A stretch of DNA of 64,000 nucleotides from Balamuthia mandrillaris (taxonomy: Eukaryota). Position 1 is the stretch's first letter; every line of letters starts with the position of its first letter. The stretch covers positions 186,001 through 250,000 of the forward strand of contig JAVKOQ020000047.1 of NCBI GenBank assembly GCA_031835245.2. The letters are read 5' to 3'. A model generated the notes under the pieces. It saw only the letters and a program-made list of their open reading frames with translations, ran no database searches and was not told the origin of the DNA. The position numbers and the translations under genes are program-made. Shown piece after piece: positions 1,779-52,197 of the stretch.

Positions 1779-1917
1779 AGCGTTGCTCCACGTATCCACG
1801 GTGGGCTGAAAGGCACTGTGAAGAACGCGTTATAGCTGTCCCAAGAGGAATTGTGAAGCTCAGCCGTGGTTGTGCTCCTGTTGTGAGTGCTGGCGGGCCG
1901 TTTTCGCATCAGAGCTG

Positions 1918-2343
1918 CTATTCTACTACCGTTTGCGTTTTCTCATCCGCATCCTCATCGCTTGGTATGAGAGCAGTTTCGCTGTACGTCTTCACCAAGT
2001 CCAATAGGTTAGGGCTATGCACAAATCCCATGCCGATGGTGTATTCCTCCAAAATGTTTCCTGTGTCTCGGTCTTTCACCCTTGCCTCAAACCATTCCTC
2101 CTTGTAGTGGTCGCTGTTGCAGCACCCTTCCTCAAAGTGTGGGACCCTCTGCTTGTAGCGGTGATACATCCAGTTGGCAAAGACACTTTCGTGCCGCAAA
2201 TACTCCCACACTTGCCAGCGGGCGGAAGGCAGGTCCGGAAAGGTTTTGGGCTCCCAACAGCCGCATGAGGAACCGAAACCAGAGGAGGCCTCCACGATGT
2301 AGCCCGGTGGTTTCGCTTGTGGTCTCCTGCTTTGTTTCTTCAT
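1918..2343 (-). CDS. Hypothetical protein, paralog of 1281-1778
   Basis: Intronless ORF (YIVEASSGFGSSCGCW..FEEGC..EW..HSPNLLDLVKTYSE). Protein-level conservation with the neighbour supports coding. Confidence 0.7.
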   Translation of the reverse strand: MKKQSRRPQAKPPGYIVEASSGFGSSCGCWEPKTFPDLPSARWQVWEYLRHESVFANWMYHRYKQRVPHFEEGCCNSDHYKEEWFEARVKDRDTGNILEEYTIGMGFVHSPNLLDLVKTYSETALIPSDEDADEKTQTVVE

Positions 2344-2541
2344 GTTTATCTCCTCTATAGGTTTTTTTTTCTAAAAAAAGTTTTTTTCTGTATTTTAGTT
2401 TTTGTTTTCACATAATGTGAAACCGTTTAGTGAAAGAGCGATGCCCAACATGCGGTCGTGGCCTTCTTAAGTTCGCCTAGCGGAGTGTTGTTGTTCGAGA
2501 GGGTAGGAGAGGAACGCTCATTGGGTTGGTGTTGTGCATGT

Positions 2542-5524
2542 TCAATCGAACTCATCATTTGCCAAAAGAGGGGCGTACTCTGCTCCTTCTCCTCCCATCG
2601 AAAACTCCTCCCCTGAAAAGTTGACTGCGCCCAAGGAGGCCGAGAAGTCTTTCAGCTTTCTTCTCCGCCACACCACCGCCCCTGACATCACCAAGACCAC
2701 CGCGCAAATCGCCACACCCACGCTCACCGACACCGCCACCACCAGCTTCACATTCATTCCGCCGTCTTCGTCGCTTCTTGTGTCCACCAAGACTTGTACG
2801 TCCGGATCGTAAAACATGTGTTGGCCAAGGGGCATTCGGATCACCAGCCATTGTTGCCGCTCTTCTTCCTCTACTCTGGCAAATGCGGCTCTTTGCCTGC
2901 CATCCACCAAGCACACCTGCAACAAGCCCATGGTGACTTGAGTGTGGTTGGTGGTCCACACGCCTCTCGTACTAGTTCCACCTCCGTGCAAGAGAGAATG
3001 GTTGAGTTGTTGTGGTGTCAAAGCACCATCCAAGCTGTTCAGGCTCACCTTCATCTCCAACCATTTCGCCATCTCTTTCTTTTCTTCTGGTGTCCGTGTC
3101 CAATGTCCAGTAGGTGAAGAAGAAGCCGTGAGATTGGAAGGAGCCCATCCAGAGAACTTCACGCTCCATTTGTTGAACCCAGCACCCACCTTGAATGTGG
3201 TGTTGCCCACATAAAACTCCCTCTCTTCCTCCACCACCGTGAATGTCCATTCCACCCGCTTTCTGCCTTTCTCCATCGTTTTATCGTCCTCCATCTCCAA
3301 GAAAAAGCCAATTGTCCTCTCATCCAAGAAAGAGGATTGATAGCCAGAAGAAGGAAAACTCATGTTTCTTACCACCTGGCCTTTGTCGTCCAACTCTTTT
3401 ATGGAATGAAACACGAAATCCAAGCGGAGGTGATTTTGAGGATGGGCGCCTTGTTTCGGGACGAGTTGAAGGTTTGGGGTGTTGCCTGGGAACTGGCTGG
3501 CTGTCTCTCCTGCACCTGGATCGATCGTGGGCTTTGCTCCACTGTCTTCCAAGACAGCAGACCAAGAGACCAAAGGGAAGTTGTTGGGTGTAATGCTTTG
3601 GCACCCGATCTCCACTCTTGTTGCTACCAACGCTTGCTCGGAGGAGAGCCCAAAGCGGAAAGATGTCCAAGCGCTGGTGGACAAGTCACCAGCCTGGCAG
3701 AGCACGTGCTTAGCTGAGGTGGTATCTGTCAGAATGACGCATGCGTGTTTTGGTAAAGAACTAGAGAAGGTGGTGCCGGCGAGGGAGGAGTCATCGTTCA
3801 GACTGGTGAAGTTGAAGAAGCAGCCCACTTGGCGGGCCCATGAAGGTCCTTCACTCTTTGCCTCCACTGAGAAGTCATGGTGTTTCTGTTCCTTTGAAAT
3901 GGTCCAAAGTCAGCAAAAACAAAGGGAAAAAAAGGAAAGAAAATGAATGTAAATACCCTTTCAGTGGACATGTTGGAAGGAGAGAGCCATCGAACTTTCA
4001 TCGTTACATCTTTGCTGAAGGGCTTCACTTGCAACTGGCCTTTTGCTTTGGGCAGCACCTTCTTCAGCTCGTCCTTGCAATCCACCGAGAAATCCACCAC
4101 CGTATCCGCCAAAGAGGAGTCCGCAAGAACCTCAACCTGGCTGGCCACCACTTCTTTTGGCTTTACGTCCAGCGTGCATGAGAGTACATCTGGTGCGTAA
4201 ACGATGTGGCAAAAGGATCGAGTGAAGGGGTTTTGGATGATGGTAAGGTTTGGGGGAAAATGCCAAGCCATGCTGGTATTAAGGCTGGTGGACTGGCCAG
4301 CGTTGGACAGGTTGAAACCGATTGCAGTCAGTTCGCCAGGCACGATGACAGCATCAGTTTTATCTTTGGCGATAGTATTGGTGAGACAAAAAACAAACAC
4401 AAAGATAAACAAAAAGCAGACATACTGGTGAAAGAAAAAGCAAGTTGAATGTCTGGAGATGGCTCTGTGGCCATAGGGTCGGGCGCAATGTAACGTTCCA
4501 ACTCGTCGCCTGCTGTGTTGTTGCATGATGGCACCTCCACCGTTATTCTGTCTCGCACCGAGGGACCCAAAGGAATCGTCCGAAAAGCAAAGCTTTCTGC
4601 AAGCCAAAACACCTCACGTCAGAGAGCAACCTCTGAAAAGAGGATGAAGAATTGAAAAAAAAACAGAAAGAAGGAGCAGAAAAGAGCCTGGTACTCACCA
4701 ACGGTAGCAGGCGGCAAAGTGGTGTTTTGAAAGTTACAACGAATGGTGCCGTTCTGGCCATCTCGGCAAGTCGGCGGCAAGGCTCCACGATCTAACAGGG
4801 AGAGTGGTGCAAAGGAGACCAAACAATAGCCGTCTTGAACCGAAGAAGGCCCGCTGCTGGACACGTTGAAGGAGGGGTGCAGTACAGTGTGTTGACCAGG
4901 CACAAAAGATGGCGGAAGCTCGGCGGTGAAGTTGCTCGTGAGGTTAAACTTGGCGTGTATTTTAATGTCCAGAGCGTTGTTCTGAGAGGCTCCGCCGTCG
5001 GCAATGGTGTACCTTAGAGGTGTGGAAGGCTGAACGGCTGAGAGAGGCAGGTTGAAATGCCTCTGAGAAGAGATAATTGCCTCGCCGGCGCCGCTCACTA
5101 CACAGCGGTTCTTCTGGGTTTTGCAGTCAACTAAAAAGTTGGATGGAACCGTTGGTACAGAGAGATCTGTGCACACGGTCAACTGGTTAGAGAACAAAAA
5201 CAAAAAGCGGATGCAAAGAGAATGAACACAGAAACGCGAACCATCGGTGGCCCAAGCGTCAAACTCAGGATGCGAGAGAAGCGTCAGAACGCAAGGAGGT
5301 TCGCCAATTTGAGCAGCCCACACAGTAATGGCCAGGTTGAGGAGGAAGGGCTCGCCAGGGGCTGGGTCCTTCGGCACCGTGGAATAAGAATGTTGGCCAC
5401 ATGCCAAAGCGGTGACGCTGGTTACGCAGCAAGCGAGCAGGCAAGAGAGAAGGAGAACCGGTGGTAACACGCAAGAAGGGGAAAGTCCAGGGAGGGAAGA
5501 CCTGCAGCAAACCCGTTCCTTCAT
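2542..5524 (-). CDS. Spliced type I membrane/surface protein with ComC-supersandwich-like C-terminal domain
   Basis: N-terminal hydrophobic signal, Cys-containing ectodomain across several exons, FHSIKELDDKG...KWS...YDPDVQVL, then a TM helix (VVAVSVSVGVAICAVVLVMSGAVVW) followed by RRRK. Confidence 0.7.
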
Positions 5525-6156
5525 GCTTTGCGTCGTCTTTGTCTTCTTTTATGTCTGCTAATTACTTGTAGAGTTAATTTGGTGGTTGGCCACTAACTTA
5601 GGGATCCGAAGGGTCGGAAACAGGATACACAAGCAGAAAAACAACCCAACACCTACCCACTGGGACTGTGGACGACTCAACAACGAATCGCTAGTACCGT
5701 ATGATTCACTCTCTTGCCAAGTCCACTATCTCCCAAGACCTCCTCTTCACTAGTCTAGAAGTGGCCAACAACTGTCTTCCGTACGAGCTTTTAAACCTGC
5801 CAACCAAGCCCAAGCAACCATGCCTCCTCTTTTGCATTGCAACCAAAAAAAAAAAACTCCATGAGACGACTTCTTTCTGTTTCAGCTGAGAGACACCCTT
5901 TGCCCGGTCCAAGCCAAGCTCCAGGACAGAAAGAGAGAGCAGAGCGGAGCAGTTTGTTGTTGCTCTCTGAAGGGGTGTTTCGGTGCATCCCCCCCTCGTC
6001 GGCAAAAAATCGATTTGATTCTTAGCGTCGTCACGATACATGACTTTTCAGTCGACGAAAAATCTTTTTTTCGTGTCGTCAAAAAAAGATTTTTCCTCGT
6101 GTCGTGTTCGAAAAATCTTAATTTCGTGTCGTCACGAAAATTTCCCAGGCTCCTGT

Positions 6157-8092
6157 ATGTTGCCGGCGGTGAGGAGGGCTGCTTGGACGACGGCGGGACG
6201 TAACGGCATGCATACCCCATTCTTGTTGTTGGGCCGCGGGACCCCTGCGCTCCTGAGCAGGGGTGGAAGAAGCAGCAGCGCCAGCCACGTGGCTGGGTCC
6301 TCGTGGAGCGGCAGCTGCGCTCGGACCAAGAGCCTGCTGCTGGGGTGGTCCACAAGAGGGTATGCTGCCACCACGACGAAAAGCTTAAGGACAGGCAGCA
6401 GCCACGCCTCTTCTTCGGCTTCTTCCTCACGCTCAAACGTGTTGGGCGTTCCCACCCCAGCGTACAAGGAGTTCCTTGCTTCTCTTTTTGCTGCTCCTTC
6501 GCCTCAATTTCTCGGCTCCTCTTCTGCTGCTGCTGCTCAGCCAGCGATAACCACTTTGGACATGCACACCGAGGGAGAGCCTTTGCGCATCGTGTTGAGC
6601 GGACTAGAGGAGCTTCTTCCTTTTGACATGCAGGGCACCATGCTGCAGCGTAGACGTTTTGTCCAACAGAACCTGGACCACCTTCGTCGTTGCCTCATGT
6701 GGGAGCCTCGTGGCCATAGGTTTCTCTCTTCTCTCTCTCACTCTTTCTTCTCCTCTGTTATGTTGTTTGTTCTGCTGTGCTCTGTTCTTCGTCACCTTTT
6801 GTCTTTCGACTCAAGCTCACTCTTCTTCCTCGATAGAGACATGTATGGATGTCTTTTGTTTTCTCCAGAGAGACCGGACTCTGATGTTGGCGTTTTGTTC
6901 CTCCACAATGAGGGACTCAGCTCCATGTGTGGCCACGGCATCATTGCTCTGACCAAAGCCATCGTAGAGCTTCGTCTTGCTCATTCTTCTTTTTCGTCTT
7001 CTTTGTCCTCTTCGTCTTCTTCTTTTCAAGAACTGCGCATAGACACTCCTGCTGGACTCGTTGTGGCAAAAGCATGGCTCGAAGATTCCAAACCAGCTTC
7101 CTCATCCTCACCAGTTTCGACAAGCAAGCAAGTGAAACGAGTAACATTCGAGAACGTACCGTCCTTTGCGTATCGGTTGGACGTTCCCGTTTGGGTGCCT
7201 GAACTGGAAAGAGAAGTGCGCGTGGACATAGGATGGGGTGGTGCCTTCTATGCGTACGTGCAGGAGGATCAGCTGTGGAAGTGTGAAGAAGGAGGTAAGC
7301 CTCGCGAAGCGTCAGACTACCGTTTGCTTGGAATGGCAGTGAAGCGAGCTGTCATGCAACAAGTGGAGCTTGTTCACCCATTTGAACAAGATCTCAGTTT
7401 GCTTTATGGTACATTGCCTCTGCTCTTCTTCTCCTTATCTCTTTGCTTCTCCGGTTTCTCAGTAAAAACATGAAACCAAAGGAACCATCATTGTGGGGAA
7501 AGGACAAGCGGCAGGCTCTCACAGCAAAAACGTGTGCATCTTTGCTGATGGAGAGGTTGATCGCTGTCCCACCGGTACTTTCTTGCTCAGCTCTGTTCTT
7601 ATTCGTTGTTCACCGTGTGTTCCTCCGTTTCATTCCGATGAATAACAGGCACGGGAGTAAGCGGACGGTTGGCTCTTCATCACGCAAAGAACGAATTGTC
7701 TGTTGGTGAAACGATTGTGATAGAGAGCATACTTGGCACCACTTTTACTGGTTTTCTTTCTTCTTCACTTTTTTCGTCTTACCCCGCTAATCCCTGCTCC
7801 ATTTCTCCCATGAGATGCATCTCCTCTCTCCTAGCTTCTAACTTCTCTCCTTTCTCATCTCTTCACTCGCGTGTATCAAAACATAGGGAGGGTAGTGAAG
7901 GAAACTCAGTTTGGTTCGTTTAAAGCCATCATCCCGGAAGTCGGTGGAAGAGGTTCAGTACAGAAATCAGTTTTAACGTTTTCCGTTAAGCAATCTCTCA
8001 CCACTTTAAACAATGCAGCTTTTGTGACAGGATTCAACAAGTGGGTGATAGATCCTGATGATCCGTTGCGATATGGCTTTATTCTTTCATGA
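6157..8092 (+). CDS. Proline racemase family, probable trans-3-hydroxy-L-proline dehydratase (L3HYPDH-like)
   Basis: Motifs DMHTEGEPLRIV, EPRGH/DMYG, HNEGLSSMCGHG, IDTPAG, VDIGWGGAFY, FADGEVDRCPTG/TGVSGR and DPDDPLRYGF across introns. Arg/Ser-rich N-terminal extension. Confidence 0.88.
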
Positions 8093-9155: not shown

Positions 9156-11924
9156 ATGAGCGCGAACACATGTTTGGTCGTTGGTCTGGTCGTGTTGGTT
9201 TGGTTGCGCGGCTCTGCCTGGGCGACAACCGGTGAGAAGAATGACCGGTTTTTTTTTGGTTTTATGGCTCTCCTTTAGCAAGGGCTTACCATTGTTACCC
9301 TTATTGCAGGTTACTTTTCGCCTGATGGTGCAGGGTCTGCATGTCTCGAAACGAACCCGTGCAACAACCCTTTTACGGTGGCCATTGAGTTTGACGAGTA
9401 TATTCTTGCCGCCGGAGAGTATAACATGACAGCAACTGTGGAACTTGACAGAGACATTACATACAGGTTTTTTCGACCTCCTGTTTTCACTTTGTCTTTT
9501 CTTCTGTTTTGCCAGTTTAAAACCTTCTTTGCTCGATCTTCCTCTTCTTTTTTTGACAAAAAAAAACTTTAAACGCTTGTTCTTCTGTAATAGAGGAAGA
9601 GACGGAGACCAACCAGCAGTGATAAAAGGAGCGTCTGATTCCGAGCCTTGTTTCAGCCTTAATCATGTAAACAGTGTCTCCTACAGCCTCAGCTTCCACC
9701 ATCTGGTTATTGAATGTCCCACCGACGCTGCTTTCCTTTTACGCCCATCCCACCCCATAAATGTGGAGTTGAGAGACGTGGTCATTCGAAACTCCTTTGG
9801 TGGCTTCTTTCTCAGCGTCCCGGATACTGGGGAATACGAGGTAAGCTCGTTGAAGATGACGAATGTACAAGTGAGAAACACTCAATGTGGAGCACCTGAG
9901 TGGAGTGGTTTGTACAATGGGGTTGTTTAGTCTCTATGAATGTACACTGATACTGCATGACCCTTTTCTTCTTCTACAGAGCCAATGATACTAATCAGCG
10001 TTGATTGGACATTTTACAAAGTTTCGTTTATTGATAACTGTGTTAAGAATACTGATACAAGTGAGTTGTTTTACTTGTTTGCGTTTTCTTCCATGCTAAC
10101 CTTAGCATATCCTGTAATATTCAGTGATAGCAGTGGTGCAGGACTGCAATGTTACAAGCAGCGGTGGCACACTTCTCTTTCAAGGCAATGGTGGAGAATA
10201 TGTTCTTAGGCTACAAGAACACACCACTTTTACCATGTATGGCGCAGATATGCTATTTGAAAATAATACAGCACTTACGTTAGGTTCGTTAAAGTTGCTT
10301 GCTTTTTTTTGTTTCTATTTTTCTTTGCTTTGTCTTCATTTGCTTATAAACTTTTTTTAACGTTTTATGGGCAGCAAGCTTGGAGGATCAGAGCTCATTG
10401 CGAACAAATGGGGTGCTCTCTTTCAAATCCAACTCCGTTGCGAACCAGTTGCTGTATTTCCGAAATGGGTCGGCCCTTCATAGTCTTCTTCCCATTCAAC
10501 TCCAAGGAAATAATGACAAGCCCTTGCTTGTCGTTGAACGTCCAGATTTCTCGGAGGTGTGCATCACTCCATGCGAAGAGGATGCGCCAATCTGTGATTG
10601 CAACCACCTGCCTCTCCTTTCATGGAGCATTCCATCAATTTCCCTGCAACTACCTCCTTCCAGCATGCTTGAACTTCCTCTTCTTAGCTCTTTTCCCCCC
10701 AATGATATGGATTTGCAGCTCTCCTTGGAGCTATCTGACGGGCTTGTTTACGGACAACACTTCACCACACAACCTCCTCCGGCTAATCCAAATCGTGCTT
10801 CTGTGATGAACGTGTCAATGGAGATTCCTGCATTTGCGGTGGACGCTCAGTTAAACATCATCCAGGCAAATGCCTTACTGCAAGAAGAAGCCATCACCAT
10901 CCGAGTGGCGCCCAACTTCTGGAGTGACTCTTTCTTCGTAAATATGACCTTCATTCAAGTCTCCATCCAACCATCCCCTTCTCCAAGCTATCAACCTGAC
11001 CAAGCCACCGTCTTGGTTACCTTTCCCGATCCTACAAAACCAGACCACACTCTTTCTCTCCTTGATCCACAAGATGACAACCAAACTCTGACTAACCGCT
11101 CTGTCTCCGCTCAGTTCGCTACGTTGATGGAGGTTGATGAAGACGGAGAAGTTGTTGCTATGGTGTTTTTGAAGGAAACCGAGTTCGAGGCAAAGGAGTT
11201 CGACAACATTACGTTCAACCTCAACAATGCTCTTCCGTTCTTCTCCTTCTCCACCAATATCACCGCTCTGACAACGTACATTGGAAACGGAGAAGAAACA
11301 ACGAAAACAAACCTGACAGAGAGCATCATAATGGAAGTGGAGTTCACCATGTTCGTGGAAGAGCAAGTGGTCTCTTTTGCAGGGGTGGAGCAGGTCATGG
11401 GGGCCAACACCCTCAAGTGGAGTTTATTGCTATCCTCTTGGCCCTTCCAACACCCCACCCATTCCTTGGAGCTGCATCTCTTCCTCTCCAGCGAGGATGG
11501 ACCCATCTCTCGGCTATCCGAAGAGCAATCAGGAGAAACCCAAGCGTGGATGCTGAAGCTTGGGACAGAGAACACTGAGATCCCGGTGAACGTCCTGCCC
11601 TTGGCTCTTCTTCTTAATGAACATAACGACGAGCAACAGGTGAGGGTGAGCGCGGAATGGAAGGCAGAAGAGCAGGAGTTGATGATCCGTTTGCCTTGGT
11701 TCGGCCAAGGCTCCTTGTTATTGGATCCCGACATGTCGTTGCTGGTGGCGGAGGAATCAACGGAAGAAGACGATGAGGATGATGGGCTATGGTGGAAGGT
11801 CACCGTCCCGGTGGTATTGGTTGTCTTCCTGGTGGCAGGCGCGGCGGTGGTGGCGGTGGTCGTGTTCGTGCAAAAGAAGCAGAGCCGCAGGACCATCAAC
11901 CAACGCTCCCACGTCAACTATTAA
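9156..11924 (+). CDS. Spliced type I membrane/surface protein with pectin-lyase-like N-terminus and ComC-supersandwich-like C-terminal domain
   Basis: Signal peptide MSANTCLVVGLVVLVWLRGSAWA; YFSPDGAG..CLETNPC; later FATLMEVDEDG, SFAG..KWSLLLSSWPF, LLDPDMSLL, then a TM helix and basic tail. Confidence 0.75.
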
Positions 11925-18926: not shown

Positions 18927-20339
18927 ATGGCTCACGTACTCGCCGGCTCGAACGACTTGGAAAAGCTGGAGGACCTCTCCAGCAAGACCTACAAGGAACA
19001 GGCCATTTGGTTCCTCAATGCCTTTTGGGACAAGCACAAGGAGGAGGCGGAGCGCCTGTGGAAGTTCAAGCACCAGTGCGACGAGCTGGACCACGCCAAA
19101 AAGTCCGAGGGCTGCGCGCTGGACGAGCTGCAGGCCCACCGCTTCTTGGAGAAGTTCCAAGAGACCATGACCGTTCAGTCCATGAGAGACAAGCTGCGGT
19201 CCACAGGAGCCATCGGTGCCAAGGTCAAGCTGGTCCCCTTGATCCACATCCTCATCATCCGTTTCAACGTGGACTGGCATGAGCTGGTCAATGCTCCCCA
19301 AGGCAGCAAGGAGGAGATCGACAGAGCCCAAAAGCTGTTTGACGAGGTGCAGGCCGCTTTCCAAGAGGCCGAGGCCCGCGCAGAGGAAGCCGCTGCTGCC
19401 TTGAAGGAAGCTCAGGCAAGAGAGGCTGCTGCCAAGGCCAGAGAAGCCGACGCTCTCGCTCGCGAGGCGGATGCCAAGGCGAGAGAGGCGGAAGCCAAGG
19501 AGAGAGAGGCGGAGGCCATTGCCAGGGAGCAAGAGGCCAAGGCCAGAGAGGCGGAAGCCATTCAGAGAGAGGCCGATGCCAAGGCCAGAGAAGCCGACGC
19601 TCGTGCCAACGAGGCCAAGGCCAAGGAGCAGGAGGCCGAGGCAGTGGCCAAGGAGGAGGAGCTGAGGGCAGCCAAGGAGGAGCAGGAAGCGGCGTTGGCG
19701 GAGGTGAAGGCCCAAGAGGATGCCTACAACAACAAGACGGCAGAGCTGAAGAGAGCCAGCGAGGAAGGCGGTTTGGTCTCTCGCAACAAGGCCAAGAACG
19801 AGCTGGCCCAACACTTGCAGGAGGACCCTCTCCCCTTGCGTCGTGCCAAGATCACCCTGGAGGCTGCTGTGAAGAAGGCTGAGAAGGCTGCTCAGATCGC
19901 TGCTGATGCTCGCTCTGCTGCCGAGGCCTCCGCCAGAGAGGCCGAAGCCTCCAGAGCCGCCGCTGAGAAGTCGGCAAGAGAGGCGGAGCAAGCTCGTGCC
20001 GCTGCCCAAGCCGCCGCTCGTGAGGCCGAAAGGGCTCGCGCCAGCGCCGAGGCAGCTGCTCGCGAGGCCGAGGAAGCCAGAGCCGTCGCCGAGCAAGCCG
20101 CTCGCGAGGCCGAGCAAGCCCGCGCCGAAGCGGAGGAGGCCAGGAGACACTCGGAGAGGGCCAAGGAGGCGGCCGAGGCTGCCTTGGAGGAGGCCAAGCG
20201 GAAGCTGGAGGAGGCGGAGGCCTATCTGGAGGAGGCCAAGAAGACCCTGCCCGAGGGCCAGATCTGGTGGATGGAAAGAGAGCTGCACGAGAGGAGGGCC
20301 TACTTGCCGCAAAGCAAGGGAGGCTTCCGCCGAAACTAA
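18927..20339 (+). CDS. ABP34-like actin-bundling-protein homolog with Ala/Glu coiled-coil inserts (often annotated TolA-like), copy 1
   Basis: KEQAIWFLNAFW, EEIDRAQKLFDEV, NELAQHLQEDPLPLRRAKITLEAAV and GQIWWMEREL resemble, from memory, motifs of Dictyostelium 34-kDa actin-bundling protein. Intronless. Confidence 0.8.
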   Translation: MAHVLAGSNDLEKLEDLSSKTYKEQAIWFLNAFWDKHKEEAERLWKFKHQCDELDHAKKSEGCALDELQAHRFLEKFQETMTVQSMRDKLRSTGAIGAKVKLVPLIHILIIRFNVDWHELVNAPQGSKEEIDRAQKLFDEVQAAFQEAEARAEEAAAALKEAQAREAAAKAREADALAREADAKAREAEAKEREAEAIAREQEAKAREAEAIQREADAKAREADARANEAKAKEQEAEAVAKEEELRAAKEEQEAALAEVKAQEDAYNNKTAELKRASEEGGLVSRNKAKNELAQHLQEDPLPLRRAKITLEAAVKKAEKAAQIAADARSAAEASAREAEASRAAAEKSAREAEQARAAAQAAAREAERARASAEAAAREAEEARAVAEQAAREAEQARAEAEEARRHSERAKEAAEAALEEAKRKLEEAEAYLEEAKKTLPEGQIWWMERELHERRAYLPQSKGGFRRN

Positions 20340-20465: not shown

Positions 20466-23400
20466 TTAGTTCTCATTCTTGGTGGCCAAATAGGAGGTAA
20501 ACATGCTCTTCAGCTCTGCCAACTCCTCGCGAGCGCTCTTCAGTTCGCTCTCGAGCTCCTGCACCTTGTTGGACAATACTTCCACGGCAGCCCTATCCGC
20601 TCTCCTCAGCTCCATGGCGCTGGTGTCCGTGACCGTTCCTTCGACATAGACGTTGCCTTTGATGTAGAGGTCGCCAGTGTCGTCCATCATCAAAGAGGTC
20701 TCATGGGAGTCACAGCCGTTGTTTGTGGAGAAGGCGCCCGTGCCGATGGCGAAGATGGGGGTGCCGCTGCCCGTGAGGCTCTCAGCGGTTGCGTTGTTGC
20801 AAACGCCAAAGACGACGCCACCAACGGTATTGGTGCGGACATTAACGCCGTGGGCAAAGGAGGCAGTGGCCAAGGCCTCCACTTTACCAAGGTGGGCTGA
20901 TGATGAAAAGAAGGAAAACATTTAAAACAACAGCTAACAACCAAGAGATGCATAAAACAGAGGAGAGAAAGGGAGTCCAGAGGGGAGAAGAGGACACAAT
21001 GAGGGAACGGGAGAACGTAAAGAAGAAGGACAGCAGTACCTAGTCCAGACGCGTGAGCACCATCAGCAAACGCTTCAAGAGTACCGTTAAACAAAGCTGA
21101 ATGAGAAAAAGCATGGAGGTGTTATAAAGTTATAAACACTGCTTGTCTGAAAAAAGAAAGAGAGATACCAGCGCCCATGGCAATTGAGCCAAATCCTTGC
21201 GACATGATTGTACCACCTTCAATAGCTGATTGAGAGCAAAGAGGAGGACGTGAGTTAGGGGAAGGAGAGGGAGAGGGAGAGGGAGAGGGAGCGTTTACCT
21301 CCACCAGCAGCGAATGCGCCATCGCTCAAGGCCACAATTGCGCTTCCATTTCTGGCTGGAAACGGAAAGAAAGACCGCAAGAAGTGAATAAACAAGAAGA
21401 AAAACTAAACAGAATGTTGACAGATAACAAGGAATAATAAAACAAGTCAAAGGGATGGTACATGAGCCTATGGCAACAGATCCGTTGCCTTCAGAGTAAA
21501 TGCCGGAATTGCGAACAGCTGTTAGGAGTATTATTAGAAACACGAAGCAAGGCGTGTTGAAAAACAAAAAAAAAAATGTGAAAGTAAAAGAAATAAAAAT
21601 GCGAGAGCTGCTTGCAAAAATAATTCTAACATACCCTCGCCAGCTGCAAAGGATCCCCAGCCCAGCGATACCAACGAAGAAGACTGGTAAGCTGAACGAA
21701 TGAGGCAACACGTTAGCAAAAGAAGGCATCTTTCTCATCCAGCAGCAAGGAAGGGAGCCAGTAACGTACATTCTCCCATAGCTATAGAGCCGAAGTTCCC
21801 GGAAAGAATCTCACTGTTCTCGTCGGCTTTAAAACGTATACGAATTCGTTTGCAAGCTCAGTACAATCAAAGCAAAAACCAATAATAAAGCAAAATTGGA
21901 GGAGCTTACCTTCTCCGTAGGCTAATGCTCCGGACTCGTTGGCAAAAATCCTTGAGCCGTCAAGTGCTGCAACAAAGAATGTACAAGAGTTAAAGAATGC
22001 AATTATCAACACATAAAACGCAAATGGCAAGAAGAAAGAGCAAGAAGAATGAAGAACGAAGAAGAGAGAAGAAGATGAAGATGAAGAAGCAGGACAAAAA
22101 GAAGATGAAGGACAATAACGCCATAAGACAGCAACAACAAAGCAAGCAAAATCCAAAACACCAAACGGGCAAAAAAAATAGTAAATAGAAAAAGTATGAC
22201 GCAAAGAGCATGTACCTGAACCAATGGCAAACGAACCGTAGAAGCTGTTAGAAATAATTTCACCGACGTCCTCGGCTGGGGCGAAAGATGTTAAGGCACA
22301 AACAAAACACGCTCACAAATGAACTCCACAAACGCACCATAGCCGAAGGCAAATGTGCCGTCGCCAAAAGCACGGATGATACTGTCGTCGTCGGCTAGAA
22401 CAGAAAATCAAATGAGTTATTTTTTCTTTTTTGCGTTTATTAATCGTCTGTTGTTTGATACGTACCAGATCCAAAAGCAAAAGCACCAGTGTCCAACGAC
22501 TCAATAACCGAACGTTCATCAGCTGTAGGTAATTGCATGGCCACATTAGAAAGAGAGGGAAGTAGGGTTAGAGCAGAGAAACCAAGAGGAGAAAAGCAGG
22601 GAACGAGAAGAATGAGCATGAACACAAACCGCTGCCCATAGCGAAGCTTCCCGTGGCATTCGCCTTCAGCATTCCTCCCGCCTCAGCTAAAAGTGTTTCA
22701 GTTACAAACAAAAACTGATGAAAGCCAAAGACAAAAAATGACGAACCGAGACCCATGGCAAATGATCCAAGGCCGTTGGACTCTATTGTGCCGTTTAACG
22801 CTGCATTGCAGTACAGTTAATTATCTTTCTTGTTCATTTCTTATTGCACCTCTCATTTGTCTTACCATTGCCCAGAGCAAAGGCACCGAATTCCGAGGCT
22901 CTCACGGTCGCATTGGTTGCTTTCAAGTTGTGTGGAGGGACGAGGTAAGAGCGTGCAACTTTTTGAAAAAGAACAAAAACGAGTGGATCACTAAAAACAG
23001 CATACCGACACCCATGGCTACAGCGCCACCTGATGTTGCTGAGAGAGAGCCACCATTCTCCGCTAATAATTATGGTTCAGAATTGTTTTTGTCACAAAAG
23101 TAAAAAACACAACGTACAAGAACAAGACTAAGAAGAAGCACAATAATAACAAAACGGCCACAGCCACGACTTACCCAAACCAGCGGCAATAGAACCACGT
23201 CCATCAGACAATAGATCAGACTGACCCCCTCTAGCTGTTTTGTTGAGAGTCAGCTTCATAATGAGAAGGAGGTTTGTTCAACTGTTGTTTGTTTGTGTAC
23301 CCTGGCCCATCGCAATTGAGCCACCCGCGCGTGACCTCAAAGTGCCCCCTGAAGCTGTAAACAACAAAATAAATGAATGAACACAACGGCGGGAATAAGA

Positions 23401-25146
23401 AAAGTTACAAACTAACCAAAGCCCATTGCAAACGATCCTGGACCATCGGACACAATAACACCACCATAAGCTAAGAGAAGAGGCGGAAGGAGAGAGCGAG
23501 ATAGAGAGATGTTGAGTGTCAGCACCGGTTTTTTAGGGCAAGCACATTATATTTTGTTCTTTTTCTTCTGTTGCTTAATCTTCTGCATTTCTGTTTCCTT
23601 CTTGCAAAATGTTATAACTCACCATCACCCAAAGCGAACGCTCCAAACCCATCAGCCTCGATGGTGGAGTCATCATCAGCTATATAAATATGTAAAGCCA
23701 GCAACAAGAAAGGGAGTGAAAGATTAGAAGGAAGAAGAAGAAGAAGAAGAAGAAGAAGAAGAAGAAGAAGAACAAGAAGAAGAACAAGAAGAAGAAGAAC
23801 GCAGAAGAAGAAGAAGAACAAGAAGGTCACGAAGATTAAGAAGGAGAAGAACGCAGAAAGAAAAAACAACAAACCAAAGCCCATTGCGACACTGCCAGCC
23901 TTACGCGAGAAAATTTCGGAACTGTTGTAAGCTGAAGGTTTGAAAAGTAAAGAAGTATCGATTATTTATGTGATATTGCAAGGGTGCAACTGGTTTAAAC
24001 AACAACAGGTGAGAAGACGCACCATCACCCATGACAATCGATCCGTATGACTCGGCCACCAAGAGGGAATTCCAGTCGGCTGTGAGTCAAAGCAAGACGA
24101 GCTTAAGAATGAAGAGAAAAGAACTACAAAAAGAGGACAATAGCCCAATGGCAGAGGGATAACAAACCAATGCCAGCTACAAAAGCGCCTGCACCTCGGG
24201 CGGACACTAAAGCACCCTCAAAGGCTGCATAACAACAAAGTAGCCCAAAAGAATAACATTCAAGATGGTTAATAGGAACAACCTAGAGTGGGTTCATGGT
24301 TCCGAAGCTTTGGACAGATTGCGTACCTAGCCCAAATGCAGTGCTGCCGTCGTAAGTTGCTTCAAGTAAACTGTTATTCTTTGCTAGACGGACACAAGGT
24401 GAACAAGTGAAACAAACACAAAGAGAGAAGCAGCAAAGAACAAGACCAACATGACCGAGAACAAGAGTTAGTAATTCCAGTGAAAGAATATTGATACGAT
24501 GATCCTAACCAAAACCAGCAGCGAAAGAGCCTTGTCCCTCGGCGGCAGTGCTCAAACCAAAGGCAGCAGAATAGAGCCCGATGTTCTGTGGGTCCCATTG
24601 ATCGTTTGCCACGGAGCCTGCTCGGAAGGCAGCTCGGCTTCCATACCACAACATACGTGCTCCTGTTCATTTTTTTTGACGAAAACATAAAAAAAACGCA
24701 AACAAACGTTCAGAAAACTTTCGAAAAAAAAACAACAAATGTGATGCGTGAAGGAAAAGACACAAACGTAAAAACGCGAGAGAGAAGAGGGAAGCTGTAC
24801 CAGGGCCAGAAGCATCCCACGCTAGCCCGTCAACATCTGTGTTGTTCTCATTAACGTAGGAGCGCGCGTACACGGATCCTCCCTGCAATCTGTAGGTGCT
24901 GTTCTCAAAGACCTGCCATGCACCGCTCAACTCGAAGAGGGTCGCCAGCGATTCGCAAAGGTTCTGGTGGTCGGGGCAAACGAAGAGGGTACCGTTGGTG
25001 GACATTCGGAAGGCAACCTCACCTTCGTGCTGGATGATGAACTCGTTGGGGTTCTCCTCCACACAATGAGGGGCGCCGATATGAGCGGCCGTAAAACCCA
25101 ACAAACAGATCACCAACAAACCTAAAGATGTACTCTTCGTCATCAT
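20466..25146 (-). CDS. Secreted YadA-head/tail-fibre-like beta-roll repeat protein with C-terminal coiled coil, ~25 exons
   Basis: Signal peptide; GPGARMLWYGSRAAFRAGSVANDQWDPQNIGLYSAAFG; 22 micro-exons each encoding about A-x(9-11)-G-[SA]-[FIV]-A-x-G; final exon PIFAIGTG...DDTGDLYIKGNV then coiled coil. Confidence 0.82.
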
Positions 25147-26547: not shown

Positions 26548-27801
26548 ATGGCACACACGTTGAACGGCTCGAACGACTTGGAGAAGCTGGAGGACCTCTC
26601 CAGCAAGACCTACAAGGAACAGGCCGTGTGGTTCCTCAATGCCTTCTGGGAGGACTTTGCCAAAGATGAGGCGGAGCGCCTGTGGAAGTTCAAGCACCAG
26701 TGCGACGAGCTGGACCACGCCAAGAAGGCCCAGGGCTGCGCTCTGGACGAGCTGCAGGCCCACCGCTTCCTCGAAAAATTCAACGAGACCATGACCGTCC
26801 AGTCCATGAGAGACAAGCTGCGGTCCACAGGAGCCATCGGTGCCAAGGTCAAGCTGGTCCCCTTGATCCACATCCTCATCATCCGCTTCAACGTGGACTG
26901 GCACACCCTGGTCAACGCCCCCCAAGGTAGCAAGGAGGAGATCGCCAAGGCTCAACAGCTGTTGGACGAAGTGCAGGCCGCCTTCCAGGAGGCCGAGGCC
27001 CGTGCAGAGGAGGCCGCTGCTGCCTTGAAGGAAGCTCAGGCAAGAGAAGCTGACGCCAAAGCCCGAGAGGCGGACGCCAAGGCCAGAGAAGCCGAGGCCA
27101 AGGCCGCTGAGGCCGATGCCAAGGCCAGAGAAGCCGAAGCTCACTCCCGCGCGGAGGAGGCCAAAGCCACCGAGGCTGAGGCAGTGGCCAAGGAGGAGGA
27201 GCTGAGGGCAGCCAAGGAGGAGCAGGAAGCGGCGTTGGCGGAGGTGAAGGCTCAAGAGGATGCCTACAACAACAAGACGGCAGAGCTGAAGAGAGCCAGC
27301 GAGGAAGGCGGTTTGGTCTCTCGCAACAAGGCCAAGAACGAGCTGGCCCAACACTTGCAGGAGGACCCTCTTCCCTTGCGTCGTGCCAAGATCACTCTGG
27401 AGGCTGCTGTGAAGAAGGCTGAGAAGGCTGCTCAGATCGCTGCTGATGCTCGCTCTGCTGCTGAGGAGTCAGCCAGGCAGGCCGAGGCTGCTGCCCAACA
27501 AGCCAGCAGCGCTAGAGCAGCTGCCGAACAAGCCGCCCGACAGGCAGAGCAAGCCAGAGCCCAGGCCGAGCAGGCCAGAGCGCAAGCAGAGCAGGCCAGG
27601 CAACACTCGGAGAGGGCCAAGGAAGCAGCTGAGGAAGCGTTGGAGGAGGCCAAGAGGAAAGTGGAGGAGGCAGAGGCGTACTTGCAGGAGGTGAAGGCTC
27701 GTCTGCCGCAGGGAGCCATCTGGTGGATGGAAAGGGAGTTGCACGAGGCGAGGGCGTATTTGCCCAAGAGCAAGGGTGGTTACAACAAGAACGAGAAGTA
27801 A
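26548..27801 (+). CDS. ABP34-like coiled-coil protein, copy 2
   Basis: 417 aa intronless ORF with the same motifs as copy 1 (QAVWFLNAFW, QGAIWWMEREL). Confidence 0.8.
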   Translation: MAHTLNGSNDLEKLEDLSSKTYKEQAVWFLNAFWEDFAKDEAERLWKFKHQCDELDHAKKAQGCALDELQAHRFLEKFNETMTVQSMRDKLRSTGAIGAKVKLVPLIHILIIRFNVDWHTLVNAPQGSKEEIAKAQQLLDEVQAAFQEAEARAEEAAAALKEAQAREADAKAREADAKAREAEAKAAEADAKAREAEAHSRAEEAKATEAEAVAKEEELRAAKEEQEAALAEVKAQEDAYNNKTAELKRASEEGGLVSRNKAKNELAQHLQEDPLPLRRAKITLEAAVKKAEKAAQIAADARSAAEESARQAEAAAQQASSARAAAEQAARQAEQARAQAEQARAQAEQARQHSERAKEAAEEALEEAKRKVEEAEAYLQEVKARLPQGAIWWMERELHEARAYLPKSKGGYNKNEK

Positions 27802-28257: not shown

Positions 28258-29469
28258 ATGGCTCAAGTGCTGAACGGCTCGAACGACTTGGAGAAGCTGG
28301 AGGACCTCTCCAGCAAGACCTACAAGGAACAGGCCGTGTGGTTCCTCAATGCCTTTTGGGAGGACTTTGCCAAGGAGGAGGCGGAGCGCCTGTGGAAGTT
28401 CAAGCACCAGTGCGACGAGCTGGACCACGCCAAGAAGGCCCAGGGTTGCGCTCTGGACGAGCTGCAGGCCCACCGCTTCCTCGAAAAATTCAACGAGACC
28501 ATGACCGTCCAGTCCATGAGAGACAAGCTGCGGTCCACAGGAGCCATCGGTGCCAAGGTCAAGCTGGTCCCCTTGATCCACATTCTCATCATCCGCTTCA
28601 ACGTGGACTGGCACACCCTGGTCAATGCTCCCCAAGGCAGCAAGGAGGAGATCGCCAAGGCTCAACAGCTGTTGGACGAAGTGCAGGCCGCCTTCCAGGA
28701 GTCTGAGGCCAGAGCCGCTGAGGCCGCCGCTGCCTTGAAGGAGGCTAAAGCAAGAGAGGCGGACGCCAAGGCCAGGGAAGCCGAGGCCAAGGCCGCTGAG
28801 GCCGACGCCAAGGCCAGAGAAGCGGAAGCCCACTCCCGCGCGGAGGAGGCCAAAGCCACCGAGGCTGAGGCAGTGGCCAAGGAGGAGGAGCTGAGAGCGG
28901 CCAAGGAGGAGCAGGAAGCGGCGTTGGCGGAGGTGAAGGCTCAAGAGGATGCCTACAACAACAAGACGGCAGAGCTGAAGAGAGCCAGCGAGGAAGGCGG
29001 TTTGGTCTCTCGCAACAAGGCCAAGAACGAGCTGGCCCAACACTTGCAGGAGGACCCTCTCCCCTTGCGTCGTGCCAAGATCACCCTGGAGGCTGCTGTG
29101 AAGAAGGCTGAGAAGGCTGCTCAGATCGCTGCTGATGCTCGCTCTGCTGCCGAGGAGTCAGCCAGGCAGGCCGAGGCTGCTGCCCAACAAGCTAGCAGCG
29201 CCCGCGCCGCCGCGGAGCAAGCCGCCAGGCAAGCCGAGCAAGCCAGAGCGCAAGCAGAGCAGGCCAGGCAACACTCGGAGAGGGCCAAGGAAGCAGCTGA
29301 GGAAGCGTTGGAGGAGGCCAAGAGGAAAGTGGAGGAGGCAGAGGCGTACTTGCAGGAAGTGAAGGCTCGTCTGCCGCAGGGAGCCATCTGGTGGATGGAA
29401 AGGGAGTTGCATGAGGCGAGGGCGTATTTGCCCAAGAGCAAGGGTGGTTACAACAAGAACGAGAAGTAA
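28258..29469 (+). CDS. ABP34-like coiled-coil protein, copy 3 (tandem with copy 2)
   Basis: 403 aa intronless ORF, nearly identical to copy 2 but two heptads shorter. Confidence 0.8.
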   Translation: MAQVLNGSNDLEKLEDLSSKTYKEQAVWFLNAFWEDFAKEEAERLWKFKHQCDELDHAKKAQGCALDELQAHRFLEKFNETMTVQSMRDKLRSTGAIGAKVKLVPLIHILIIRFNVDWHTLVNAPQGSKEEIAKAQQLLDEVQAAFQESEARAAEAAAALKEAKAREADAKAREAEAKAAEADAKAREAEAHSRAEEAKATEAEAVAKEEELRAAKEEQEAALAEVKAQEDAYNNKTAELKRASEEGGLVSRNKAKNELAQHLQEDPLPLRRAKITLEAAVKKAEKAAQIAADARSAAEESARQAEAAAQQASSARAAAEQAARQAEQARAQAEQARQHSERAKEAAEEALEEAKRKVEEAEAYLQEVKARLPQGAIWWMERELHEARAYLPKSKGGYNKNEK

Positions 29470-33219: not shown

Positions 33220-33890
33220 TTAGGAGACGGTTGCAAAGGCAGGAGCATAACGAAGAAGACCCCTGGGAGCAGCACCAGAAGATAGAATACCTTCCTTCAC
33301 TTCCAACACCATAAATGATTCTTTTTGTTGTTGAAGAGAAGAAATAAGAAAAATGGAACAACAAGAAGAAAACGGAGTTGCATACCATCATCAACAGGAA
33401 AAGGAGCCTCTAGCCCAAACTGCCGAGCCGGTTTAAACCCAAACTTTGGATAATACTCAGCGTGGCCCACCACAACGACGGCCAATGGATACCTCTCTTG
33501 GTCGCGCCTCACGATGGCCAGAGCGTGTCGTATAAGCTGTGAGCCGATCCCTCTTCGTTGAAAGCGCGGAGAGACAGCCACAGGAGCAAGGGCTAGCACA
33601 TGCCCGCACGCGCGCCCGCTGCTGTCGAGCACTTCCGCGCGACTGAAAGAGATGTAGCCAACGATGGTTTCAGCATCCTTTTCCTCGTTCTTCATGGTCG
33701 CCACGAGCGCGAGTTCAGGATAGAAAGCGCCCGCAGAGCCGCTGCGAAGGGCCTTTACCAGAGCGGCCTCCTCGGGTCCTCCAAAAGCGTCACGAAGGAC
33801 CTCAGTGACGACATCGCCATCGGCAGTTGGAGCTTCCGGTCGGATGGAGACTTGGCTGGAGGACCTCTCGTGTTCTTCTACGCCCAACAT
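33220..33890 (-). CDS. GNAT N-acetyltransferase (YhbS-like)
   Basis: IRPE..AFGGPEEAALVKALR, LAPVAVSPRFQRRGIGSQLI, VVVGHAEYYPKFGF; after one intron SFMVLEV...LRYAPAF. Confidence 0.9.
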
Positions 33891-34119
33891 AGCGGCGGCG
33901 TTTTTATTATTCGCCTTTTTCGTTGGTGCACCACACACATAAACGAACCAGAGCAATTCTTGTCCCGAAATGCGTTGAGAATGGGCCTGGATAAAGAGGG
34001 ATAGCTGTGCTTGCTTTGTGTCTTCTTTGGCAGCGGATCCATTTTTCGTGGAACTCAGGGGCACAGGACGCGCCGACGAGAAGAAGAACTAAAGTTAGAG
34101 AGAAAGAAAGAAAACGCCA

Positions 34120-51740: not shown

Positions 51741-52197
51741 TCTACAGGAGTTTGAGCGGAAGTAGCTAGCACGAGTGTCGGTGTGTGAAGTTGTTTTAAA
51801 ATTTGAACAATAATAAAAATAATAAGATTTGATTTTAAAAATTGGCGAATAAGTTGGCAGGAAGGACGCCGCCTCTAACGTAGTGGAGAAGAAAGCGAGA
51901 AAATGGACGGTTATTATTCTTTCGGGAGGTGAGCTCGGTTACCGTTACCTTTGAAGCTTGCTACACCGAGCGCAACGCTCTTGTTGTCCATCCAGCTAAG
52001 CAGGACCGACCGCCAAGATAGGTTGGACAGGGCCGGTGTCCGGCCATTTGATCTCATATATCCTAGCTTATATTGCCAGAGACCCCTCAAGCCCGAACTT
52101 TTGGCTTTTTGGCCGTCACTCTCTCCCCTTCTATTTTAGCGCAAATCATACAAGACTCAAGAAACGCACAGAAGAGAAGCGGGCTACGAAGTTAGAG

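What the first reader, a model, noticed from the sequence alone, without database searches (positions are those of the whole stretch)
20466..25146. Bacterial tail-fibre/YadA-head-like secreted protein in an amoeboid eukaryote
Seen after splicing: signal peptide, GPGARMLWYGSRAAFRAGSVANDQWDPQNIGLYSAAFGLSTAAEGQGSFAAG, more than 20 GSxAxG repeats, PIFAIGTG...DDTGDLYIKGNV and a terminal coiled coil. Known (from memory): G-x-G-x-R-M-x-W-Y-x3-A-A-F-R-A-G...Q-W-D-x2-N-I-G followed by SxAxG repeats and an FxIGNG neck is typical of bacterial 'tail fiber domain-containing' proteins, which usually end in a peptidase S74 chaperone plus coiled coil. Here the S74 domain appears absent. Inference: an old horizontal acquisition domesticated as a trimeric beta-roll fibre or adhesin. 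It is invisible in the ORF track.
Basis: partly seen in the sequence, partly recalled or inferred. Interest (0 to 1): 0.85.

Follow-up and report, generated by a model that had tools for sequence, protein, structure and literature searches.

The report
Amoeba's domesticated bacterial adhesin-like fibre gene
An amoeba, most likely the brain-infecting Balamuthia mandrillaris, has a 25-exon gene model, likely acquired from bacteria or their viruses, in which 22 tiny exons each encode one repeat of a predicted secreted three-chain fibre resembling bacterial adhesins, making it a candidate surface or cyst-wall attachment protein.

Summary
A minus-strand model (25146 to 20466) has 25 exons, 24 of 24 GT-AG introns all in phase 1, and a stop-free 725-residue product: signal peptide, bacterial-type cap, 24 G-[SAT]-x-A-x-G repeats, neck, coiled coil. 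Exons 3-24 each encode one 18-20-residue repeat. The host is most likely Balamuthia mandrillaris, whose NCBI proteome holds a partial 96%-identical orthologue with the last junction, plus three or four paralogous loci. The cap matches 115 prokaryote-type proteins (95 YadA_head, 71 S74). The S74 core is deleted and there is no autotransporter barrel. The 19-residue period is not that of these bacterial proteins (14) but of unannotated phage-like fibres, so the protein is a mosaic. A paralogue's module is predicted as a homotrimer (ipSAE 0.96, controls 0.00), and YadA-type heads are 6 of its 8 best fold matches. Best reading: an old horizontal acquisition, expanded by exon duplication and kept as a secreted trimeric beta-roll fibre. 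Expression, donor and ligand are not shown. New variant of a known kind; interest 0.62.

The parts
20466..25146 (-). Whole gene model: 25 exons, 725 aa, about 71 kDa after the signal peptide, pI about 4.3
24801..25146 (-). Exon 1 (residues 1-115): signal peptide (about 1-21, 25084-25146) and an N-terminal region whose last 45 residues align with the inter-module linker of paralogue P0118
   Evidence: hydropathy and local alignment score 68 against shuffled mean 27, maximum 57 of 500; no Pfam match
24510..24662 (-). Exon 2 (116-166): bacterial-type cap R-M-L-W-Y...A-A-F-R-A-G...W...N-I-G plus one YadA-type repeat
   Evidence: 115 proteins at E<=0.001, 45-67% identity; 512 confirmed stretches in bacterial genomes
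21040..24383 (-). Exons 3-24, one 18-20-residue repeat each, all phase 1-1: 24383-24327, 24224-24168, 24079-24023, 23931-23875, 23679-23623, 23470-23417, 23354-23301, 23234-23175, 23062-23006, 22919-22866, 22800-22747, 22686-22630, 22522-22466, 22394-22338, 22275-22216, 21966-21910, 21826-21770, 21691-21635, 21518-21462, 21355-21299, 21225-21169, 21096-21040
   Evidence: repeat profile scores phage-like long-repeat proteins highest
20628..20896 (-). Exon 25, first part (583-672): last repeat and neck, G-x-C-N ... F-x-I-G-x-G ... C ... G-D-L-Y-I; the two cysteines are invariant in the amoebal family (likely disulfide)
20601..20606 (-). Dibasic Arg-Arg (680-681) in the short linker where bacterial relatives begin the S74 domain; candidate convertase site (inferred)
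   Evidence: one Arg invariant in 6 of 6 rows of alignment A1; Arg-Arg in 5 of 6 distinct tails
20466..20585 (-). C-terminal coiled coil (about 687-718) and stop; matches only the terminal helix of bacterial S74 tails
   Evidence: heptad a/d 75% hydrophobic; helix pLDDT 77-90; S74-tail profile positions 111-141 of 157

Best explanation
This is an intact-looking 25-exon amoebal gene model, likely acquired long ago from a bacterium or virus, whose product is predicted to be secreted and to assemble as an unanchored homotrimeric beta-roll fibre that likely serves attachment at the cell surface. Each micro-exon would add one rung: the conserved G-[SA]-x-A-x-G strand would pack at the three-fold axis as in YadA heads, and the variable, five-residue-longer outer strand would face outward as the binding surface. 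The array most likely grew by tandem duplication of one exon-intron unit inside the amoeba. The self-cleaving S74 chaperone of the ancestor has been deleted; its terminal coiled coil remains and would set the trimer register, and may be clipped at the dibasic site by a secretory protease. With no membrane anchor, the fibre would be held by a partner protein or by glycans. Shown: sequence anatomy, homology, S74 loss, paralogues. Predicted: trimer and beta-roll (on a paralogue). Inferred: transfer, exon duplication, secretion, cleavage, attachment role. Odds by step: real gene 0.93, prokaryotic or viral origin 0.9, trimeric beta-roll 0.85, attachment role of the trophozoite rather than another role about 0.6.
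For: Gene integrity: 24 of 24 canonical phase-1 introns and 22 of 22 frame-preserving repeat exons despite 35% mutual identity. In DNA run X1 both exonic SNPs are synonymous and 4 of 4 indels lie outside exons (X1 may be the source sample). An NCBI Balamuthia model (KAL6062968.1, 155 of 161 residues identical) joins exon 24 to 25 as modelled. Host integration: flanked by amoebozoan-type F_actin_bund_C genes, a proteasome ATPase and other eukaryotic genes; GC3 of exons 1-2 and 25 (0.62, 0.76) is within the range of four neighbours (0.59-0.77). Origin: the cap is in 115 prokaryote-type proteins, 95 with YadA_head and 71 with S74, counted by eye, and across more than ten bacterial phyla by record title; exon 25 finds only 5 of 1.84 billion representatives, 4 of them Balamuthia; the 7 amoebal modules form one side of a branch among 103 prokaryotic or viral ones (SH-aLRT 92). 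Structure: P0118 residues 2550-2880 x3 score ipSAE 0.96 in 3 runs, best of 3 controls 0.00, pLDDT at least 91, contacts at least 90% shared, interface recurring every 18-20 residues on the G-[SA]-x-A-x-G strand; that mark was reached by 21 of 30 solved homo-pairs and 0 of 23 single chains (eukaryotes 17 of 29 and 0 of 30). YadA-type heads are 6 of the 8 best structural matches of the monomer model (CbpF Z 13.3, UspA1 13.2, BoaA 12.3, YadA 11.7, BpaC 11.6, AtaA 10.7; rmsd 6.9-10.1 A over 139-175 residues). Exon duplication: 23 introns (2-24) fall at the same position of the repeat. [quoted passage not shown]
Against: No transcript or protein evidence was obtained, and 23 of 24 junctions rest on my model. 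The folds were computed on a paralogue (30-36% identical), not on this protein, and a pass may come from likeness to solved YadA heads. The best structural match is a curli subunit (Z 13.8), tied with the YadA heads, and rmsd values are high, so handedness is not established. Pfam YadA_head does not hit any of 6 amoebal family proteins at E<=0.1. No anchor explains how it would stay on the surface. The repeat region is acidic (pI 4.1), unlike the basic collagen-binding YadA head (pI about 9.2; PMC9543794, passages). The tree has 130 columns, no root and no AU test, so it names no donor. One of the five amoebal tails (P0120) has a single Arg, not a dibasic site.
Confidence: 0.58

Rival explanations
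1. Same origin and fold, but the fibre is a structural cyst-wall protein made during encystation, binding wall glycopolymers, as the bacteria-derived beta-helical Jonah lectins do in Acanthamoeba.
For: Signal peptide, no anchor, acidic, rigid repeat rod. Jonah lectins are secreted, anchorless, beta-helical, multi-copy and from an old bacterial transfer (PMC11423589, passages). Balamuthia cysts have a fibrous mesocyst (PMC8579774, passages).
Against: No sequence link to Jonah domains was found (no Pfam family in 6 family members). Its known relatives are surface fibres and adhesins. No Ser/Thr-rich spacer as in Jonah, Luke and Leo.
Confidence: 0.22
2. A silent or decaying relic of an integrated phage, giant virus or polinton-like virus fibre gene with no current function.
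For: The 19-residue repeats are most like phage-like fibres, one of them on a 527 kb terminase-bearing contig. Giant viruses and polinton-like viruses carry YadA-head and S74 fibres (PMC13620141 and PMC12220804, passages).
Against: 24 spliceosomal introns, a signal peptide, intact frames across strongly diverged repeat exons, several intact paralogues, an orthologue in a second assembly, and no viral genes among 20 window ORFs scanned. A viral route of entry stays possible; relic status does not fit.
Confidence: 0.06
3. A secreted, soluble decoy or agglutinin: the fibre is released to bind prey cells, bacteria or giant-virus particles at a distance rather than attaching the amoeba.
For: No anchor in any full C-terminus of the family. 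Paralogue P0118 is multivalent, with 10 caps and 11 necks.
Against: No data on location or ligands; unanchored fibres in bacteria and phages are normally held by a partner (established knowledge, recalled).
Confidence: 0.1
4. A vertically inherited or convergent eukaryotic Gly/Ala/Ser repeat protein whose likeness to bacterial fibres comes from low complexity.
For: The repeats are low in complexity and could converge; the ESM Atlas lists a YadA_head/S74 cluster with haptophyte members.
Against: The cap is not low-complexity and is up to 67% identical over 51 residues to bacterial proteins; cap, repeats, neck and terminal helix lie in the bacterial order; no broad eukaryotic family was found.
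Confidence: 0.04

Closest known systems
Bacterial 'tail fiber domain-containing' proteins with YadA_head (PF05658) and Peptidase_S74 (PF13884), e.g. Bacteroidota, Rhodothermota (Salinivenus MAG, P0001/L028), Gemmatimonadota, Patescibacteria
   Same: Cap motif (45-67% identity), S-x-A-x-G repeats, F-x-[IV]-G-x-G neck, terminal coiled coil, tandem cap-repeat-neck modules; the Salinivenus proteins share the G-x-C-N neck cysteines.
   Different: Repeat period 14 there, 18-20 here; S74 core deleted here; 24 introns.
YadA-like left-handed beta-roll heads of trimeric autotransporter adhesins (YadA, UspA1, BoaA, BpaC, AtaA, CbpF)
   Same: Predicted trimeric beta-roll with the S-x-A-x-G inner strand, a neck and a coiled coil; canonical motif GxNSVAIGAxSxAx (PMC9543794, passages).
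   Different: No beta-barrel anchor; five extra residues per rung; eukaryotic secretion; no Pfam YadA_head hit.
Unannotated long-repeat fibres of phage-like contigs (P0124-P0141; L002 on a 150 kb contig, L105 on a 527 kb terminase-bearing contig)
   Same: 18-20-residue G-x-G-[SA]-x-A-x-G repeats; best scores against the window's repeat profile, E down to 3e-54; 2 of 12 also have the neck.
   Different: 0 of 12 have the cap; no introns; phage-type N-termini.
Mosaic adhesive trimer (MAT) fibres of Bdellovibrio bacteriovorus
   Same: Secreted trimeric fibres in a predator, a multi-gene repertoire, with S74 and non-S74 members (PMC10769870, passages). A functional analogue.
   Different: MAT fibres are built on intertwined beta-prisms with a conserved N-terminal domain; homology was not tested here.
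Jonah cyst-wall lectins of Acanthamoeba
   Same: Old bacterial acquisition of a secreted, anchorless beta-helical protein, expanded as paralogues in a related amoeba (PMC11423589, passages).
   Different: Three-sided beta-helix like ice-binding proteins with Ser/Thr spacers; no sequence link found.
MYRF / Dictyostelium MrfA
   Same: Eukaryotic use of a phage tailspike-type trimerisation module (PMC3742443, PMC3828593; search listing and start of abstract only).
   Different: They keep the self-cleaving chaperone and are membrane-tethered transcription factors; this gene kept the fibre and lost the chaperone.

Membership tests
Trimeric autotransporter adhesin (type Vc) | C-terminal beta-barrel membrane anchor (YadA_anchor) | tested here: not met
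   Exon 25 has no such Pfam match at E<=1 and ends in a helix; no hydrophobic tail.
Trimeric autotransporter adhesin (type Vc) | 14-residue YadA-like head repeats | tested here: not met
   Period is 18-20 in 22 of 22 repeat exons; PF05658 hits 0 of 6 amoebal family proteins. The inner-strand motif is kept.
Trimeric autotransporter adhesin (type Vc) | Homotrimeric parallel beta-roll fold | tested here: inconclusive
   Predicted for paralogue P0118 only (ipSAE 0.96, controls 0.00); YadA-type heads 6 of top 8 but tied with a curli subunit, rmsd 7-10 A; handedness not read.
Trimeric autotransporter adhesin (type Vc) | Head-neck-coiled coil order | tested here: met
S74 (intramolecular chaperone) fibre proteins, 'tail fiber domain-containing' | C-terminal S74 domain with SDxxxK autocleavage motif | tested here: not met
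   No PF13884 match. A profile of 56 bacterial S74 tails matches only the terminal helix; 63-90 residues follow the neck's last strand here, against a median of about 122 after the motif in bacteria.
S74 (intramolecular chaperone) fibre proteins, 'tail fiber domain-containing' | Homologous cap and neck modules | tested here: met
Bdellovibrio MAT fibres | Conserved ~130-residue beta-rich domain after the signal peptide | not tested
   MAT sequences were not fetched; exon 1 has no Pfam, PHROG or confident Atlas match.
Bdellovibrio MAT fibres | Surface location and prey-glycan binding | not testable with these tools
   Needs localisation and binding assays.
Jonah cyst-wall lectins | Three-sided beta-helical (choice-of-anchor A) domain | tested here: inconclusive
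   No Pfam family in 6 family members; the model shows two strands per repeat; Jonah sequences were not compared directly.
Horizontally acquired, domesticated eukaryotic gene | Spliceosomal introns, eukaryotic neighbours, nesting among prokaryotic homologues | tested here: met
   tree unrooted and short, donor unresolved.
Horizontally acquired, domesticated eukaryotic gene | Expression | tested here: inconclusive
   No usable RNA test was obtained (see Tried and rejected).

The most novel reading that the evidence does not exclude
Balamuthia has built its own repertoire of phage/bacterial-type trimeric adhesive fibres, a eukaryotic counterpart of Bdellovibrio's MAT prey-recognition fibres: a chimera of a bacterial cap and neck with phage-type 19-residue rungs, in which a host convertase site replaced the S74 self-cleaving chaperone, and in which one-exon-per-rung symmetry lets exon skipping or duplication retune fibre length and binding surface without breaking the frame.
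Probability: 0.17. Interest if true: 0.87.

Novelty: new variant of a known kind. Interest (0 to 1): 0.62.

Why it matters
The review passages read describe Balamuthia's attachment to host matrix through adhesins and a galactose-binding protein but name no gene; this family is a concrete, testable candidate for a surface, secreted or cyst-wall fibre, and so a possible diagnostic antigen or blocking target in a usually fatal infection. It is currently hidden: NCBI holds only partial or split 'hypothetical protein' models for most members and Pfam misses them. It is also a clean case of how a horizontally acquired repeat protein is rebuilt in a eukaryote: chaperone deleted, signal peptide in place, and a repeat array grown one symmetric exon per structural rung. 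The 19-residue beta-roll, shared with unannotated phage-like fibres, has no solved relative by sequence.

Tried and rejected
Expression: no RNA holder was listed. Three RNA runs with the same species label gave 0 reads on the gene from 12.9 million records each, 3-5% of each run; without a control stretch showing the organism in those runs this is no test, and expression stays open. No whole genome was held, so intron structures of paralogues and copy number in this assembly were not examined. Exon 25 against proteins of 250-2000 residues by word index: 0 of 5333 candidates. GenBank phages by tblastn: no match for exon 2, P0123 or P0126. PDB by sequence: 0 for P0118. PHROGs: no stretch-level match for amoebal proteins. 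Foldseek of the monomer model: nothing at E<=0.001 in PDB or BFVD; top BFVD row a YadA-like phage protein at E 0.034. AlphaFold of exon 25 alone: pLDDT 53, only the helix confident; not searched. ESM Atlas for exon 1: no hit at 0.9 or above. Neck alignment A1 against metagenome contigs: 1 weak hit of 411 pattern matches, an AT-rich contig with 14-residue repeats; against viral contigs 0 of 86; against 301 genomes of the Salinivenus MAG's phylum 1 of 301, the seed genome itself, so the cysteine neck does not mark a lineage and no donor is named. A prokaryotic protein joining cap and long repeats was sought and not found among 115 hits and 92 ORFs (overlapping sets); this sample is small against about 990 estimated carriers. 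Intron-intron similarity: only shared TTC microsatellite, so duplications are old; no higher-order repeat period. N-glycosylation: 13 of 38 Asn are in sequons (p 0.006 against Ser+Thr content), but bacterial relatives have 24% and paralogue P0118 7 of 161, so no adaptation is claimed. An S-S-D relic of the S74 motif appears in 3 of 6 tails but lacks the Lys; left as speculation. Contamination was rejected (24 introns, eukaryotic neighbours, DNA run X1 covers 29 of 30 bins). Literature: no description of this gene or family was found in searches for Balamuthia+YadA (hits looked like author-name matches), Balamuthia+genome+HGT (27), YadA head+amoeba (57), TAA+eukaryote (85), YadA+protist+introns (91) or the locus-tag prefix (92), nor in the text and one supplement of PMC10471605; annotation tables not held as supplements, and subscription papers, were not seen.
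Full report
Observation. Reading the minus strand from 25146 to 20466 gives a 25-exon model with 24 of 24 GT-AG introns, all in phase 1, and a 725-residue product without internal stops. Exon 1 carries a hydrophobic N-terminus, the only hydrophobic segment in the protein. Exons 3-24 are 54, 57 or 60 nt and each encodes one repeat with consensus A-x3-[GN]-[SG]-x-[IL]-x-[AS]-x-G-x-G-[SA]-[FI]-A-x-G-x; both core glycines are kept in 22 of 22, while mean pairwise identity is 35% (protein) and 45% (DNA). Exon 25 holds a last repeat, a neck and a coiled coil. The micro-exon pattern occurs 23 times in the 64 kb window, all within this gene. Such diverged copies would have gathered stops and frameshifts without selection (inference). 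In DNA run X1, which may be the source sample, 2 of 6 SNPs are exonic and both synonymous, and 4 of 4 indels are outside exons.

Host and family. A neighbouring ADP/ATP carrier shares a 90% cluster with a Balamuthia mandrillaris protein, and the gene lies between amoebozoan-type actin-bundling genes among ordinary eukaryotic genes, so it is not a bacterial contaminant. Exon 25 scored against 1.84 billion representatives finds 5 proteins: KAL6062968.1 (P0119, partial, 155 of 161 residues identical, starting in exon 24 and crossing the last junction as modelled), KAL6069532.1 (P0118, 2919 residues, signal-like N-terminus, 10 caps and 11 necks), KAL6064523.1 (P0120), KAL6056006.1 (P0121; clustered with KAL6074060.1, P0123; its next locus tag KAL6056007.1, P0127, holds a signal-like N-terminus and long repeats) and one record of unknown origin (P0122). 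This is a family of four or five Balamuthia loci, mostly annotated as fragments. No other named eukaryote appeared; which amoebal proteomes the library holds is not known.

Origin. Exon 2 finds 115 proteins among 226 candidates at 45-67% identity; by eye 95 carry YadA_head and 71 Peptidase_S74, none lists an autotransporter anchor, and named ones are bacterial 'tail fiber domain-containing' proteins. In bacterial genomes 512 of 604 pattern matches were confirmed before the scan hit its limit, in more than ten phyla by record title. The neck aligns with that of a Salinivenus MAG protein (31%, E 2e-8 pairwise) including the two cysteines. In a tree of cap plus neck (110 of 116 distinct modules; 4 near-identical P0118 modules and 2 gappy rows dropped; 130 columns) the 7 amoebal rows form one side of a branch (SH-aLRT 92), next to a long-branched unnamed protein and the Salinivenus modules (89, 83); it is unrooted, short and had no AU test, so it supports one acquisition but names no donor. 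Wide prokaryotic and narrow eukaryotic spread gives the direction (inference).

The protein is a mosaic. Cap-bearing prokaryotic proteins have motif spacings of 14 (171 cases) or 21 (69; 14+7 from two matches per turn) and only 9 of 18-20, none with three such; 92 ORFs from fetched loci agree. A search with the last module of P0118 found 19 proteins, 12 of them Pfam-less long-repeat proteins with 18-20-residue spacing and no cap; 2 of the 12 have the neck. A profile of the window's own repeats ranks these first (E down to 3e-54) and the best 14-residue bacterial protein at 4e-8; this set was chosen with a paralogue, which biases it. Relatives lie on IMG/VR contigs of 147-150 kb and 527 kb, the latter with a terminase. 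Either the chimera formed in the amoeba, or an unsampled bacterial or viral donor already had it, or the longer rung arose twice. Giant viruses and polinton-like viruses also carry YadA-head and S74 fibres (PMC13620141, PMC12220804; passages), so a viral route is open.

S74 loss. In five bacterial relatives the neck runs straight into S-D-x-R-x-K. A profile of 56 bacterial S74 tails matches the amoebal tails only at the terminal helix, with at most a trace at the start; Pfam finds no S74. A 15-25-residue linker with Arg-Arg in 5 of 6 tails stands in its place. Cleavage by a secretory convertase is a hypothesis.

Structure. The spliced protein could not be folded, so the paralogue P0118 stood in. 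Three copies of residues 2550-2880 gave ipSAE 0.96 in three runs against 0.00 for three controls, pLDDT at least 91, at least 90% shared contacts; the mark was reached by 21 of 30 solved homo-pairs and 0 of 23 single chains, and a pass may reflect likeness to solved heads. The interface recurs every 18-20 residues on the G-[SA]-x-A-x-G strand. A monomer model (pLDDT 67) shows two strands per repeat and a terminal helix; among 48,161 solved chains its top eight matches are a curli subunit (Z 13.8), an ice-binding beta-helix (13.0) and six YadA-type heads (Z 10.7-13.3, rmsd 6.9-10.1 A). The Atlas model of P0123 also matches YadA-head and S74 clusters below the bar for naming. Against the canonical 14-residue motif (PMC9543794, passages) the amoebal rung keeps the inner strand and adds about five residues to the outer one.

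Mechanism. Likely sequence of events: a cap-repeat-neck-S74 fibre gene entered the Balamuthia lineage, gained a signal peptide and introns, lost the S74 core, and was duplicated into paralogues. In this copy an intron at one position of the repeat was multiplied by tandem duplication, giving 23 introns in one register. The product would trimerise in the secretory pathway and form a rigid, acidic rod whose variable outer strands bind a ligand. The attachment role rests on what relatives do and on the amoeba's known binding to matrix proteins (PMC8579774, passages). A cyst-wall role, as for the bacteria-derived Jonah lectins of Acanthamoeba (PMC11423589, passages), is the main rival; the acidic surface argues against YadA-like collagen binding. 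Because every repeat exon is phase 1-1, skipping any of them keeps the frame; whether that happens is untested.

Known and new. It works like a YadA-head or MAT-type trimeric fibre (PMC10769870, passages) but is not a member of the autotransporter or S74 families, since the barrel, the 14-residue period and the S74 domain are missing. I found no description of the family in the searches listed under Tried and rejected. Verdict: real, likely functional, a new variant of a known kind. The main gap is the lack of transcript or protein evidence.

Noticed in passing
window 18927-20339 (+), 26548-27801 (+), about 28258-29469 (+), 50202-about 51740 (-), about 52195-53535 (+): Five intronless paralogues of a long coiled-coil protein; the two scanned carry F_actin_bund_C. 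They differ mainly in the number of Ala/Glu/Arg heptad repeats. The target gene lies tail to tail with the first.
   Followed up: partly
window 1281-1829 and 1918-2370 (-): Two adjacent, similar ORFs with no Pfam match at E<=0.001.
   Followed up: no
window 2542-5548 (-) and 9430-11924 (+): Two large genes that look secreted with a C-terminal transmembrane helix and a similar-looking membrane-proximal domain; no Pfam match in the three ORFs scanned.
   Followed up: no
window 33297-34088 (-): GNAT acetyltransferase that resembles bacterial YhbS-type enzymes (recalled); possible further horizontal acquisition.
   Followed up: no
window 6019-7473 (+): Proline racemase-family gene.
   Followed up: no
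L002 10001-13099; L105 6852-10925; proteins P0124-P0141: A family of unannotated long-repeat (18-20 residue) beta-roll-like fibres in phage-like contigs up to 527 kb, with no Pfam or PHROG match in those scanned; one is fused to collagen-like repeats.
   Followed up: partly
P0118 (KAL6069532.1): 2919-residue Balamuthia paralogue with 10 caps and 11 necks, several modules nearly identical, suggesting recent whole-module duplication, a different expansion mode from the window gene.
   Followed up: partly
L016 (2.7 kb, AT-rich): Three tandem genes with neck motifs, one with 14-residue head repeats; looks like a giant-virus fragment (recalled pattern, not tested).
   Followed up: no
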